NCBI RefSeq assembly: GCF_055900595.2
Contig: NZ_CM148325.1
Strand: one strand, 5' to 3'
DNA: 64,000 nucleotides
Shown: positions 60,335 through 63,849 of the stretch, piece by piece
Layout of the letters: every line of letters starts with the position of its first letter
Position numbering within the stretch: the first letter of the stretch is position 1
Notes under the pieces: model-generated
Told to the model about the DNA's origin: nothing
The model's input: the letters and a program-made list of their open reading frames with translations, nothing else
The model's database searches: none
Translations under genes and position numbers: made by a program

Positions 60335-62404
60335 ATGTCTGAGAAAACTTTTCTGGTGGAAATCGGCACTGAAGAGCTGCCACCAAAAGCACTGCGCAGC
60401 CTGGCTGAGTCCTTTGCTGCGAACTTTACTGCGGAGCTGGATAACGCTGGCCTCGCACATGGCACCGTTCAATGGTTTGCTGCTCCGCGTCGTCTGGCGC
60501 TGAAAGTAGCTAACCTGGCGGAAGCGCAACCGGATCGTGAAATCGAAAAACGCGGCCCGGCGATTGCCCAGGCGTTCGACGCTGAAGGCAAACCGAGCAA
60601 AGCGGCAGAAGGCTGGGCGCGTGGTTGCGGTATTACCGTTGACCAGGCTGAGCGTCTGACTACCGATAAAGGCGAATGGCTGCTGTATCGCGCCCACGTG
60701 AAGGGCGAAAGCACTGAAGCACTGTTGCCGAATATGGTTGCGACTTCGCTGGCGAAACTGCCGATCCCGAAACTGATGCGTTGGGGTGCAAGCGACGTGC
60801 ACTTCGTGCGTCCGGTGCACACCGTGACCCTGCTGCTGGGCGACAAAGTTATTCCGGCTACCATTCTGGGCATTCAGTCCGATCGCGTGATTCGCGGCCA
60901 CCGCTTTATGGGCGAGCCGGAATTCACTATCGACAATGCTGATCAGTATCCGGAAATTTTGCGTGAGCGCGGGAAAGTCATCGCCGATTACGAAGAACGT
61001 AAGGCGAAGATTAAAGCCGATGCCGAAGAAGCGGCGCGTAAGATTGGCGGTAACGCTGACTTAAGCGAAAGCCTGTTGGAAGAAGTCGCTTCGCTGGTGG
61101 AATGGCCGGTTGTGCTTACCGCAAAATTCGAAGAGAAATTCCTCGCGGTGCCGTCTGAAGCGCTGGTTTACACCATGAAAGGTGACCAGAAATACTTCCC
61201 GGTGTATGCGAACGACGGCAAACTGCTGCCGAACTTTATCTTCGTTGCCAATATCGAATCGAAAGATCCGCAGCAAATTATCTCTGGTAACGAGAAAGTC
61301 GTTCGTCCACGTCTGGCGGATGCCGAGTTCTTCTTCAATACCGACCGTAAAAAACGTCTGGAAGATAATCTGCCGCGCCTGCAAACCGTGCTGTTCCAGC
61401 AACAACTGGGTACGCTGCGCGACAAAACTGACCGCATTCAGGCGCTGGCTGGCTGGATTGCTGAACAGATTGGCGCTGACGTGAATCATGCCACCCGTGC
61501 GGGCCTGCTGTCTAAGTGTGACCTGATGACTAACATGGTCTTCGAGTTCACCGACACTCAGGGCGTTATGGGGATGCACTACGCGCGTCACGATGGCGAA
61601 GCGGAAGATGTTGCCGTGGCGCTGAACGAGCAGTATCAGCCGCGCTTTGCCGGTGATGACCTGCCGTCTAACCCAGTGGCTTGTGCGCTGGCGATTGCTG
61701 ACAAGATGGATACTCTGGCGGGTATCTTCGGTATCGGCCAGCATCCGAAAGGCGACAAAGATCCGTTTGCGCTGCGTCGTGCCGCACTTGGCGTGCTGCG
61801 TATTATCGTTGAGAAGAACCTCAATCTTGACCTGCAAACCCTGACCGAAGAAGCAGTGCGTCTGTATGGCGATAAGCTGACTAATGCCAACGTGGTTGAT
61901 GATGTTATCGACTTTATGCTCGGTCGCTTCCGCGCCTGGTATCAGGACGAAGGTTACACCGTTGACACCATCCAGGCGGTACTGGCGCGTCGTCCGACTC
62001 GTCCGGCTGATTTCGATGCCCGAATGAAAGCGGTATCGCACTTCCGTACCCTGGATGCAGCTGCAGCACTGGCGGCGGCGAACAAGCGTGTATCTAACAT
62101 TCTGGCGAAATCTGACGAAGTGCTGAGCGACCGCGTGAATGCCTCTACTCTGAAAGAGCCGGAAGAAATTAAACTGGCGATGCAGGTTGTGGTGCTACGT
62201 GACAAGCTAGAGCCGTACTTTGCTGAAGGTCGTTACCAGGATGCGCTGGTCGAACTGGCTGAGCTGCGTGAACCGGTTGATGCCTTCTTCGATAAAGTGA
62301 TGGTCATGGTTGATGACAAAGAATTGCGAATCAACCGTCTTACCATGCTGGAGAAACTGCGCGAATTATTCCTGCGAGTTGCGGATATTTCGCTGTTGCA
62401 GTAA
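60335..62404 (+). CDS. glyS: Glycine--tRNA ligase beta subunit
   Basis: 689-aa ORF recognised as GlyS. Confidence 0.97.
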
Positions 62405-62420
62405 TAACGTCGTTATTAAA

Positions 62421-62447
62421 AAGCCTGCCATCTGGCAGGCTTTTTTA
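62421..62447 (+). terminator. Intrinsic terminator of glyQS
   Basis: aagcctgcca-tc-tggcaggc hairpin followed by TTTTTT. Confidence 0.8.
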
Positions 62448-62725
62448 TCGCTAAATAATAGAGCAACCTTTAATAATCTTCTGCTGAATAAAGATTGTCT
62501 CATATATTAATTTTATGAGATTTTTTTAGGATTATATCAAGGAGAAGAAACGAACTTATTAAACTAGAATAGCTGCGGGTGCTTGAGACTGTTTGTCTCA
62601 GGTATTCACCGAAAGGCAGACAGAGAAAAGCCCCACCTGACTATAAATCAAAGTGAGGCTACCCTATGCCTGAACACCATAAGGTTAGCCTCTTACTCGT
62701 TGGAAATCAACACAGGAGGCTGGGA

Positions 62726-62878
62726 ATGCCGCAGAAATATAGATTACTTTCTTTAATAGTGATTTGTTGCACGCTTTTATTTTTCACCTGGATGATAAGA
62801 GATTCACTGTGTGAATTGCATATTAAACAGGGGAGTTATGAGCTGGCGGCATTTTTAGCCTGCAATTTGAAAGAGTAA
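62726..62878 (+). CDS. hokA: Hok-family small membrane toxin (50 aa); in-frame upstream extension from 62666 corresponds to mokA
   Basis: MPQKYRLLSLIVICCTLLFFTWMIRDSLCELHIKQGSYELAAFLACNLKE is a typical Hok toxin; SD aggagg at 62714..62719; the 70-aa ORF from 62666 is the Mok-type overlapping frame. Confidence 0.8.
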   Translation: MPQKYRLLSLIVICCTLLFFTWMIRDSLCELHIKQGSYELAAFLACNLKE

Positions 62879-62886
62879 GAGTCTTC

Positions 62887-62912
62887 GGCGGGAAGTTATT
62901 CCCGCCTTTCTT
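62887..62912 (+). terminator. 3' hairpin of the hokA transcript
   Basis: ggcgggaa-gtta-ttcccgcc followed by tttctt. Confidence 0.5.
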
Positions 62913-63003
62913 ACGGCGTTGCGCATTCTCATTGCACCCAAATTTATTTTTCACAAAAATAATAATAGATTTTATTACGCGATCGATTATTTATTTCCTG
63001 AAA

Positions 63004-63040
63004 AACAAATAAAAAAATCCCCGCCAAATGGCAGGGATCT
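63004..63040 (-). terminator. Intrinsic terminator of cspA
   Basis: Minus-strand hairpin (atccctgcc/ggcggggat) followed by a long U-run. Confidence 0.75.
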
Positions 63041-63065
63041 TAGATTCTGTGCTTTTAAGCAGAGA

Positions 63066-63278
63066 TTACAGGCTGGTTACGTTACCAGCTGCCGGGCCTT
63101 TAGCGCCGCTTTCGATGGTGAAGGACACTTTCTGACCTTCGTCCAGAGATTTGTAACCATCGTTCTGGATAGCAGAGAAGTGTACGAACACGTCTTTAGA
63201 GCCATCGTCAGGAGTGATGAAGCCGAAGCCTTTGTCAGCGTTGAACCATTTTACGATACCAGTCATTTTACCGGACAT
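63066..63278 (-). CDS. cspA: Major cold-shock protein CspA
   Basis: 70-aa [73 protein letters not shown]. Confidence 0.97.
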
Positions 63279-63480
63279 AGTGTATTACCTTTAATAATTA
63301 AGTGTGCCTTTCGGCGATATGGCGTGCTTTACAGATTTTGAAGCGTTAAAGGAATGTGCACTACGAGGGGTATCAACGATAACTCTTGAAGGGACTTGCC
63401 TTACTACACTGCTTTAATGGTCTGTACGTCAAACCGTTGATGTGCATTAAGCCACGCATTGGCGGGTGATGCAACAATTA
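63279..63480 (-). promoter_or_regulatory. cspA long 5' UTR (about 160 nt, cold-box region) and promoter with AT-rich UP element
   Basis: Minus-strand sequence ttgcat(-35)...cttaat(-10)...acggtttgacgtacagaccattaaagcagtgtagtaaggcaag... matches the cspA leader as recalled. Confidence 0.8.
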
Positions 63481-63558
63481 TTTTTCATATTTATGATTAA
63501 TCGGTTGGAAAACGGTCCTGTCATCAGGACCGTAAACAGCAATAAAGTGGATAAAAGT

Positions 63559-63849
63559 CTATTCCATCAACTGCTTACTTAATGCCGGGTTGGCTTGAAT
63601 CAAACGCATCAATTTTAGTTCGGCACTTGAAGGCTTCACGCGTCTGGATTCCCATTCCTTTACCATGGCGACTGATACGCCCAAAACCCGGGCGAAATCA
63701 TCGATTTTTAACCCTGTCCCTTTTCGTAACTGCTCAATTTCGGTACAGGACGTTGTTCTGTGCGTCAGGGTAATTTTCTGCGTTTCATCTTTAAAAACAA
63801 TCTGTTCCAGGCTGCTCAACAGCTCATGCATGGGATCTTTATATTCCAT
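63559..63849 (-). CDS. yiaG: HTH (XRE-type) transcriptional regulator YiaG
   Basis: 96-aa ORF with a C-terminal HTH segment (DDFARVLGVSVAMVKEWESRR). Confidence 0.8.
   Translation of the reverse strand: MEYKDPMHELLSSLEQIVFKDETQKITLTHRTTSCTEIEQLRKGTGLKIDDFARVLGVSVAMVKEWESRRVKPSSAELKLMRLIQANPALSKQLME

What the first reader, a model, noticed from the sequence alone, without database searches (positions are those of the whole stretch)
63279..63500. cspA long 5' UTR and UP-element promoter
The roughly 160-nt leader upstream of cspA matches the cold-shock leader that acts as an RNA thermosensor and contains the cold-box. The promoter (-35 ttgcat, -10 cttaat on the minus strand) is preceded by an AT-rich UP element. 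This is known biology and is noted only for completeness.
Basis: established knowledge. Interest (0 to 1): 0.2.

Follow-up and report, generated by a model that had tools for sequence, protein, structure and literature searches.

The report
Standard E. coli cspA promoter and leader
This is the well-studied promoter and long untranslated leader of the E. coli cold-shock gene cspA, base-for-base identical to the laboratory strain K-12, so it is ordinary, already explained biology.

Summary
Window 63279-63500 (minus strand) holds the cspA 5' UTR (159 nt, 63437..63279), the sigma-70 promoter and the AT-rich UP region. The promoter is -35 TTGCAT at 63474..63469, a 17-nt spacer ending in TGG (an extended -10), and -10 CTTAAT at 63451..63446. 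The UP region at 63497..63475 is 87% A+T.

From 350 nt upstream of the ATG to 276 nt downstream, the window differs from K-12 MG1655 at one base, a synonymous change in the coding sequence. The flagged 222 nt are at least 99% identical in 5402 of 5422 complete E. coli genomes. Rfam's cspA thermoregulator model (RF01766) matches full length at 501 bits against a threshold of 78. The cold box, the GCCGAAAGGCACA box, the Shine-Dalgarno sequence and the downstream box are all present. The cold box is shared with cspB and cspG and with eight orthologues from other genera.

One correction: the published thermosensor is the whole mRNA, not the leader alone. At 37 C the leader pairs with codons about 11-23 (63247..63210), which lie outside the flagged interval.

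The transcription start and the temperature response rest on K-12 literature and were not measured here. Nothing new; low interest.

The parts
63475..63497 (-). AT-rich UP-element region, promoter positions -38 to -60 (ATCATAAATATGAAAAATAATTG)
   Evidence: 87% A+T, in the top 0.35% of 23-nt windows in this window. 9 of 14 specified positions match the UP consensus as I recalled it, which is a weak match. Identical to K-12. AAAATAA next to the -35 is shared with cspG and cspB. The UP requirement is known from Mitta et al. 1997, whose title is cited in PMC9947658.
63469..63474 (-). -35 hexamer TTGCAT (3/6 to consensus)
   Evidence: TTG is invariant in 9 cspA orthologues.
63446..63454 (-). Extended -10: TGG + CTTAAT (TGn 63454..63452, hexamer 63451..63446), with a 17-nt spacer to the -35
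   Evidence: TG and TTAAT are invariant in 9 orthologues and shared with cspG, cspB and cspI. The functional importance of the extended -10 is known from Phadtare & Severinov 2005, seen as a title only.
63437..63437 (-). Transcription start (A of ACGGUUUGACG), inferred from the 159-nt K-12 UTR. The Rfam model starts one base upstream, at 63438.
   Evidence: Positional transfer from K-12. Not measured here. PMC2760140 reports that cspA initiates at a preferred site plus three adjacent sites.
63279..63437 (-). cspA 5' untranslated leader, 159 nt
   Evidence: Identical to K-12 and part of the full-length RF01766 match.
63419..63435 (-). Cold-box stem-loop (6 bp, 63435..63430 with 63424..63419). 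The 11-nt cold box TGACGTACAGA is at 63431..63421.
   Evidence: The hairpin is invariant in 9 orthologues. GGTTTGAnnnACAGAC is shared with cspG and cspB. Predicted in every ViennaRNA fold of the full mRNA.
63346..63365 (-). Anti-SD / anti-AUG strand of the leader (mRNA nt 73-92, includes CCUUUAA). It pairs with 63294..63276.
   Evidence: Rfam consensus helices and the ViennaRNA closed fold. One compensatory pair in each of the two helices.
63303..63315 (-). GCCGAAAGGCACA box (mRNA +123..+135, the 'upstream box'), containing a 3-bp GCC/GGC hairpin
   Evidence: GCCGAAAGGC is shared with cspG and cspB, and cspI has GCCCAAGGGC. The hairpin is invariant in orthologues. The name and role are from my own knowledge (Yamanaka et al. 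1999).
63276..63294 (-). Translation initiation region: SD AAGG at 63291..63288 and AUG at 63278..63276. Paired in the closed (37 C-type) fold.
63253..63266 (-). Downstream box AUGACUGGUAUCGU inside the CDS
   Evidence: Described for cold-inducible csp genes in PMC6719143.
63210..63247 (-). Coding-region partner of the long-range helices with leader nt 25-69 (63413..63369). Defines the 37 C conformation.
   Evidence: Rfam consensus structure mapped to the window. Pairing of the 5' UTR with the CDS at 37 C is described in PMC6386945. Comparative support here is weak.
63066..63278 (-). cspA coding sequence, 70 aa
   Evidence: The protein is identical to K-12 b3556, with one synonymous difference at 63192.
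63014..63041 (-). cspA intrinsic terminator (12-bp stem followed by a T-run)
   Evidence: Three compensatory pairs among orthologues.

Best explanation
This is the canonical Escherichia coli cspA control region.

Promoter. The sigma-70 hexamers are poor (TTGCAT, 17 nt, CTTAAT). They are compensated by an extended -10 TGn and an AT-rich UP element that contacts the RNA polymerase alpha subunits. Transcription starts at about 63437.

mRNA. The transcript carries a 159-nt leader. At 37 C the finished mRNA adopts a closed fold: leader nt 25-69 pair with codons about 11-23, and the CCUUUAA segment (nt 86-92) pairs with the Shine-Dalgarno region. Ribosome binding is then poor, and the mRNA is also degraded very quickly. 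When transcription happens in the cold, the leader stays in the fold of the transcription intermediates. The Shine-Dalgarno sequence and AUG are more exposed, the mRNA is stabilised (the 5' cold-box hairpin contributes), and CspA is made in bulk. CspA later feeds back on its own leader.

Shown here: sequence identity with K-12, the Rfam family match, the presence and conservation of each motif, and predicted folds. Inferred from K-12 literature: the start site, the UP and TGn functions, the temperature switch, mRNA stability and autoregulation.
For: - Identity with K-12 MG1655: no differences from -350 to +85 relative to the ATG, and one synonymous difference in the CDS.
- Same gene neighbourhood as K-12: yiaG, cspA, ysaE/hokA, glyS.
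- RF01766 cspA thermoregulator: full-length match at 63438..63011, 501 bits against a gathering score of 78, E = 7e-143.
- The flagged 222 nt are at least 99% identical in 5402 of 5422 complete E. coli genomes.
- All named motifs are located.
- The cold box, extended -10, TTGC of the -35, AAAATAA and GCCGAAAGGC are shared with K-12 cspG and cspB, and partly with cspI.
- Eight cspA orthologues from E. albertii, Citrobacter, Kluyvera, Enterobacter, Superficieibacter, Pseudocitrobacter and Pseudescherichia keep TTG, TG-n-n-TTAAT and the cold box invariant.
- The Rfam structure is 88.6% paired on those orthologues, against 33-48% when the partners are slid.
- ViennaRNA reproduces the closed fold, with SD and AUG unpaired probability at most 0.01 in the full mRNA. 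For 187-200 nt intermediates it predicts a switch between 25 and 30 C to an alternative fold that leaves the SD only half-paired (two of its four bases) in a short local hairpin.
- Literature: thermosensor and two conformers (PMC6386945; PMC9947658); 159-nt UTR, cold box and downstream box as hallmarks of cspA/B/G/I (PMC6719143); UP element; extended -10; cold-box stem-loop stabilises the mRNA (Xia et al. 2002, cited).
Against: - Nothing contradicts the identification.
- A generic sigma-70 scan finds no promoter in 62900-63700, so promoter function is not evident from consensus alone.
- With the 159-nt UTR, the -10 hexamer lies at -14..-9, leaving 8 nt to the start site. That is at the long end of normal, and the start site was not measured here.
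- Comparative support for the long-range UTR:CDS helices is weak: no compensatory changes and 74-97% of cells paired. The 9 sequences are 85% identical and the 3' strand is constrained by coding.
- Equilibrium folding of the full-length mRNA gives the closed fold at 10 C as well. The cold form therefore cannot be derived from thermodynamics and has to be taken from experiments.
Confidence: 0.97

Rival explanations
1. The gene is cspE, as RefSeq/PGAP labels it in many E. coli genomes, and the upstream region is a short, constitutive cspE-type leader.
For: In records 100% identical to the window, the feature under the match is annotated 'cspE: transcription antiterminator/RNA stability regulator CspE' (WP_000014594.1).
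Against: The protein is identical to K-12 CspA b3556 and sits in the same yiaG-cspA-hokA-glyS context. The leader carries the cold box and downstream box and matches RF01766. PMC6719143 states that cspE has neither a cold box nor a downstream box. The label is an annotation-pipeline naming artefact.
Confidence: 0.01
2. The roughly 160-nt leader by itself is a self-contained RNA thermometer. This is the literal reading of the finding.
For: ViennaRNA places the SD-sequestering helices (nt 73-92 with 144-162) almost entirely within the leader. The cspA 5' UTR alone improves translation of a heterologous mRNA at 37 C (PMC6386945).
Against: PMC6386945 reports that fragments under 190 nt fold identically at 37, 20 and 10 C, that the 37 C form requires association of the UTR with the coding region, and that cold translation needs the UTR plus the first codons. 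The Rfam model spans the whole mRNA and includes 29 long-range UTR:CDS pairs. In my folds the 160-nt and 170-nt fragments do not switch conformer between 37 and 10 C, whereas the 187-200 nt fragments do.
Confidence: 0.1
3. Cold induction through this region is mainly due to mRNA stabilisation, with loss of rapid nuclease decay in the cold, and the structural translation switch is secondary.
For: The literature summarised gives a half-life of about 12 s at 37 C and strong stabilisation at 15 C. Xia et al. 2002 reported that the cold-box stem-loop stabilises the mRNA (title). The cold-box hairpin is invariant in all orthologues.
Against: This is complementary to the thermosensor model, not exclusive of it. 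In vitro translation with purified components shows conformer-dependent ribosome binding that is independent of decay (PMC9947658). The sequence alone cannot apportion the two contributions.
Confidence: 0.3

Closest known systems
Escherichia coli K-12 MG1655 cspA (b3556) promoter and 5' UTR, NC_000913.3 about 3,719,827-3,720,048
   Same: Every base of window 63279-63500 is the same. So are the CDS product, the flanking genes, the hexamers, TGn, UP region, cold box, GCCGAAAGGCACA box, SD and downstream box.
   Different: Nothing differs within the finding. Outside it, there is one synonymous CDS change (63192). The sequence also diverges beyond the terminator T-run (from 63001), and the window lacks the IS150 that K-12 carries beside hokA.
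Rfam RF01766, cspA thermoregulator
   Same: Full-length, ungapped match to all 428 model positions at 501 bits. All consensus helices can form.
   Different: None. The family covers the whole mRNA, which is a wider span than the flagged interval.
Leaders of the cold-inducible paralogues cspB, cspG and cspI (E. coli K-12)
   Same: Long leaders, the cold box GGTTTGAnnnACAGAC (cspB, cspG), the extended -10 TGnnTTAAT, TTGC at the -35, the AAAATAA upstream tract and the GCCGAAAGGC box (PMC6719143).
   Different: Mean column identity is only about 67%. The middle of the leaders is not alignable with confidence, and the cspI cold box is degenerate in the alignment. The window sequence is the cspA orthologue, not one of these paralogues.
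Heat-opening RNA thermometers (ROSE, fourU, the rpoH type)
   Same: Temperature-dependent access of the ribosome to the SD and AUG (my own knowledge).
   Different: The polarity is opposite: cspA is open in the cold. The mechanism also differs. It is a choice between alternative co-transcriptional folds of a roughly 430-nt mRNA, not the melting of a single local hairpin (PMC6386945).

Membership tests
Rfam RF01766 cspA thermoregulator | Covariance-model score above the curated gathering threshold, over the full model | tested here: met
   501 bits against 78, model positions 1-428 of 428, E = 6.9e-143, at 63438..63011 on the minus strand.
Rfam RF01766 cspA thermoregulator | The consensus helices can form and are conserved in orthologues | tested here: met
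   88.6% of cells are paired across 9 orthologues, against 33-48% with slid partners. Covariation is sparse: 8 pairs have changes on both sides, mostly in the terminator and 3' hairpins, and none lie in the long-range UTR:CDS helices.
Rfam RF01766 cspA thermoregulator | The mRNA adopts different structures at 37 C and below 20 C, with different ribosome access | not testable with these tools
   This needs structure probing or toeprinting. In silico only: the full-length equilibrium fold is closed at all temperatures, while 187-200 nt intermediates switch fold between 25 and 30 C. Experimental evidence exists for the identical K-12 sequence.
E. coli cspA promoter (sigma-70, UP element plus extended -10) | -35 TTGCAT, 17-nt spacer, TGn and -10 CTTAAT at the K-12 positions | tested here: met
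   63474..63469, 63468..63452, 63454..63452 and 63451..63446, identical to K-12. The core bases are invariant in orthologues.
E. coli cspA promoter (sigma-70, UP element plus extended -10) | AT-rich UP element immediately upstream of the -35 | tested here: met
   63497..63475 is 87% A+T, in the top 0.35% of windows. 9 of 14 specified positions match the UP consensus as I recalled it. Function is inferred from Mitta et al. 1997, seen as a title only.
E. coli cspA promoter (sigma-70, UP element plus extended -10) | Transcription starts 159-160 nt upstream of the ATG | not testable with these tools
   No RNA data are available for this strain. The position is transferred from K-12. Start-site microheterogeneity has been reported.
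Cold-inducible group I csp genes (cspA/B/G/I) | Unusually long 5' UTR containing the cold box | tested here: met
   The cold box is at 63431..63421, 6 nt from the inferred start site. It is conserved with cspB and cspG and in 14 Enterobacterales csp loci.
Cold-inducible group I csp genes (cspA/B/G/I) | Downstream box just after the start codon | tested here: met
   AUGACUGGUAUCGU at 63266..63253. AAAATGACTGGT is invariant in orthologues.
cspE (the RefSeq label on identical sequences) | Identity or synteny with K-12 cspE; a short leader without a cold box or downstream box | tested here: not met
   The protein and its context equal K-12 cspA b3556. The cold box and downstream box are present, and cspE lacks both (PMC6719143).

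The most novel reading that the evidence does not exclude
Nothing in the flagged interval is new. The most novel reading not excluded concerns folding alone. The temperature decision may be taken in a narrow co-transcriptional window, at transcript lengths of about 187-200 nt. At those lengths the nearest-neighbour model predicts a crossover between two leader folds at about 25-30 C. In the cold-favoured fold, nt 20-92 form one long hairpin that hides the anti-SD segment. That would pin the switch to a specific competing helix, UUAAAGCAGUG (nt 20-31) against the SD region, both competing for CCUUUAA. Much of this is already implicit in Giuliodori et al. 2010.
Probability: 0.15. Interest if true: 0.15.

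Novelty: already known. Interest (0 to 1): 0.04.

Why it matters
It matters only as a sanity check. The first-stage reader recognised a textbook regulatory region correctly from raw sequence, with the right strand, hexamers and leader length. The locus is a paradigm for cold-shock gene control and the basis of the pCold expression vectors. This copy is identical to K-12, so it adds no new biology. The practical by-products are small. One is a reminder that the thermosensor includes part of the coding region. The other is that RefSeq's 'cspE' label on this gene in many E. coli genomes is misleading.

Tried and rejected
1. A generic sigma-70 promoter scan of 62900-63700 found no sites. This is uninformative for a promoter that relies on TGn and a UP element.
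2. I tried to read the primary promoter papers, Tanabe 1992 (PMC206093) and Phadtare & Severinov 2005 (PMC1236650). Neither is held, so their claims are cited only through titles in other papers' reference lists. The review PMC9800685 had no locus-specific detail.
3. A genome-contig scan with the 14-base cold-box pattern was poorly specific. Only 14 were followed by a csp ORF.
4. Equilibrium folding of the full mRNA at 10-37 C did not reproduce an open cold form. I rejected it as a test of the thermosensor, because the cold form is a kinetically retained intermediate.
5. I considered small ORFs inside or antisense to the leader (63304..63417 on the plus strand, 37 aa; 63373..63477 on the minus strand, 34 aa, starting upstream of the start site). 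No evidence supports them, and the region is fully explained.
6. I considered the RefSeq 'cspE' naming as a rival and rejected it (see rival explanations).

Full report
**What is there.** The last kilobase of the window carries a 70-codon ORF on the minus strand, at 63278..63066. Its product is identical to CspA of E. coli K-12. The neighbours are yiaG upstream (63849..63559, minus strand) and hokA/sokA and glyS downstream. This is the K-12 gene order yiaG-cspA-ysaE/hokA-glyS.

**Check against K-12.** An ungapped comparison anchored on the ATG shows no difference from K-12 MG1655 between -350 and +85. One difference lies in the CDS at 63192, GAC versus GAT, both Asp29. The next differences come only beyond the terminator T-run, from 63001. 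The flagged 222 nt occur in 5422 of 5426 complete E. coli genomes and are at least 99% identical in 5402 of them. The condition that would refute the finding, substantial divergence from the known leader, is not met.

**Anatomy on the minus strand.**
- UP region: 63497..63475, promoter positions -60..-38, 87% A+T. Only 0.35% of 23-nt windows in this 64-kb window are as AT-rich.
- -35 hexamer: TTGCAT at 63474..63469.
- Spacer: 17 nt, ending in TGG at 63454..63452, which is an extended -10 TGn.
- -10 hexamer: CTTAAT at 63451..63446.
- Inferred start: A at 63437, giving a 159-nt leader. Rfam and Giuliodori et al. count 160, starting from 63438.
- Cold-box hairpin: 63435..63419, with the 11-nt cold box at 63431..63421.
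- Anti-SD segment: CCUUUAA at 63352..63346.
- GCCGAAAGGCACA box: 63315..63303, which is mRNA +123..+135.
- Shine-Dalgarno AAGG: 63291..63288.
- AUG: 63278..63276.
- Downstream box: 63266..63253.
- Terminator: 63041..63014.

A generic sigma-70 scan finds no promoter here, because the hexamers match consensus only 3/6 and 4/6. That fits a promoter that depends on TGn and a UP element. It also means the promoter assignment rests on identity with the mapped K-12 promoter. The -10 hexamer is 8 nt from the inferred start, which is long but within range. High-throughput start-site mapping found that cspA uses a preferred site plus three neighbouring sites (PMC2760140).

**Family evidence.** Rfam's cspA thermoregulator model RF01766 matches 63438..63011 over all 428 model positions without gaps, at 501 bits against a gathering score of 78. 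Alignment with the K-12 leaders of cspG, cspB and cspI shows the following shared elements:
- AAAATAA upstream of the -35
- TTGC of the -35
- TGnnTTAAT
- the cold box GGTTTGAnnnACAGAC (cspG and cspB)
- GCCGAAAGGC

PMC6719143 lists exactly these hallmarks for the cold-inducible group: long UTRs of 159, 160, 155 and 145 nt, a cold box and a downstream box. It also states that cspE lacks them.

**Other genera.** A scan of one genome per species with the cold-box pattern returned 120 loci, most of them chance matches. Fourteen, all Enterobacterales, have a csp ORF 148-208 nt downstream. Eight are cspA orthologues, from E. albertii, Citrobacter werkmanii, Kluyvera, two Enterobacter, Superficieibacter, Pseudocitrobacter and Pseudescherichia. 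In these, TTG of the -35, TG plus TTAAT of the extended -10, and the cold box are invariant, while the UP region stays AT-rich only in the closest relatives.

I projected the Rfam consensus structure onto the 9-sequence mRNA alignment. It is 88.6% paired, against 33-48% when the partners are slid. The helices behave as follows:
- The cold-box hairpin and the GCC/GGC hairpin never vary.
- The two helices that close the SD and AUG each show one compensatory pair.
- The terminator shows three compensatory pairs.
- The long-range leader:CDS helices show none and are 74-97% paired.

With sequences 85% identical and one strand constrained by coding, this neither supports nor undermines the long-range pairing.

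**Mechanism.** Steps shown here are the sequence, the motifs, the family membership and the predicted folds. Steps taken from K-12 experiments on the identical sequence are these:
- Dependence on the UP element (Mitta et al. 1997, title).
- Dependence on the extended -10 (Phadtare & Severinov 2005, title).
- Very short mRNA half-life at 37 C and stabilisation in the cold (summarised).
- Stabilisation by the cold-box stem-loop (Xia et al. 2002, title).
- The thermosensor itself.

According to PMC6386945, fragments under 190 nt fold the same at 37, 20 and 10 C. [quoted passage not shown] Cold translation needs the UTR plus the first codons. PMC9947658 adds that the cold structure exists only below 20 C and exposes the SD. 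The 37 C structure partly occludes the SD and AUG and persists after cooling, and CspA itself then helps ribosomes through it.

**My own folds of the window sequence.** They agree qualitatively with the published picture.
- The full mRNA at equilibrium is closed at every temperature, with SD and AUG unpaired probability at most 0.01 and 21-29 leader bases paired to the CDS. The cold form cannot be an equilibrium state.
- For 187-200 nt intermediates the minimum-energy fold changes between 25 and 30 C. Above that range it is the closed fold.
- Below it, nt 20-92 form one long hairpin that sequesters CCUUUAA, and only two of the four SD bases pair, in a short local hairpin.

This is model output only.

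The thermosensor is not confined to the roughly 160-nt leader. Its 37 C state requires 63247..63210, and cold translation requires the downstream-box region at 63266..63253. Both lie outside the flagged coordinates.

**Verdict.** This is known biology, correctly identified, in a copy identical to the reference strain. Novelty: already known. Interest: very low.

Noticed in passing
window 63066-63278 (-); L002 1843-2055: In many RefSeq/PGAP E. coli genomes the gene identical to this one is labelled 'cspE: transcription antiterminator/RNA stability regulator CspE' (WP_000014594.1). By sequence and synteny it is cspA (K-12 b3556). This is a naming artefact that could mislead automated comparisons.
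   Followed up: yes
window 62405-62900 (+): The hokA/sokA type I toxin-antitoxin locus is uninterrupted here. hokA is at 62726..62878, and Rfam 'sok' RF01794 matches 62577..62728 at 124 bits over the full model. K-12 MG1655 and strain CFSAN061763 carry IS150 beside hokA. The uninterrupted arrangement occurs in 2816 of 5425 complete E. coli genomes; most of the rest are split near query position 245-250.
   Followed up: partly
window 63512-63533 (-): A strong hairpin (ACGGUCCUG-AUGA-CAGGACCGU, 9 bp, -15.5 kcal/mol) followed by UUUUCC lies 26 nt after the yiaG stop codon and about 15 nt upstream of the cspA UP region. It is probably the yiaG terminator. The terminator scan missed it because it has only 4 U. 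A GC-rich hairpin occupies the same position in most cspA orthologues. Whether yiaG read-through reaches cspA was not examined.
   Followed up: partly
window 62855-62926 (-): This is the equivalent of the K-12 small protein gene ysaE (b4793, 23 aa), lying between the cspA terminator and hokA and overlapping the hokA 3' end convergently. The window version, MRNAVRKAGITSRRRLLLFQIAG, differs from K-12 MRNAVSKAGIISRRRLLLFQFAG at 3 residues. PGAP calls it a hypothetical protein.
   Followed up: partly
window 62412-62478 (both strands): A sub-threshold Rfam STnc370 match (46 bits against a gathering score of 54 on the minus strand; 33 bits on the plus strand, at 62364-62451) sits just after the glyS stop at 62404. 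It is a GC-rich hairpin (GCCUGCC-AGAU-GGCAGGC) flanked by A-runs and U-runs, and it looks like a bidirectional terminator, not an sRNA.
   Followed up: no
window 63458-63462 (-): The promoter spacer contains CCAAT (ATTGG on the other strand), the Y-box core once proposed as a CspA DNA target (my own knowledge). It is not conserved in the orthologue alignment, so it is probably fortuitous.
   Followed up: partly
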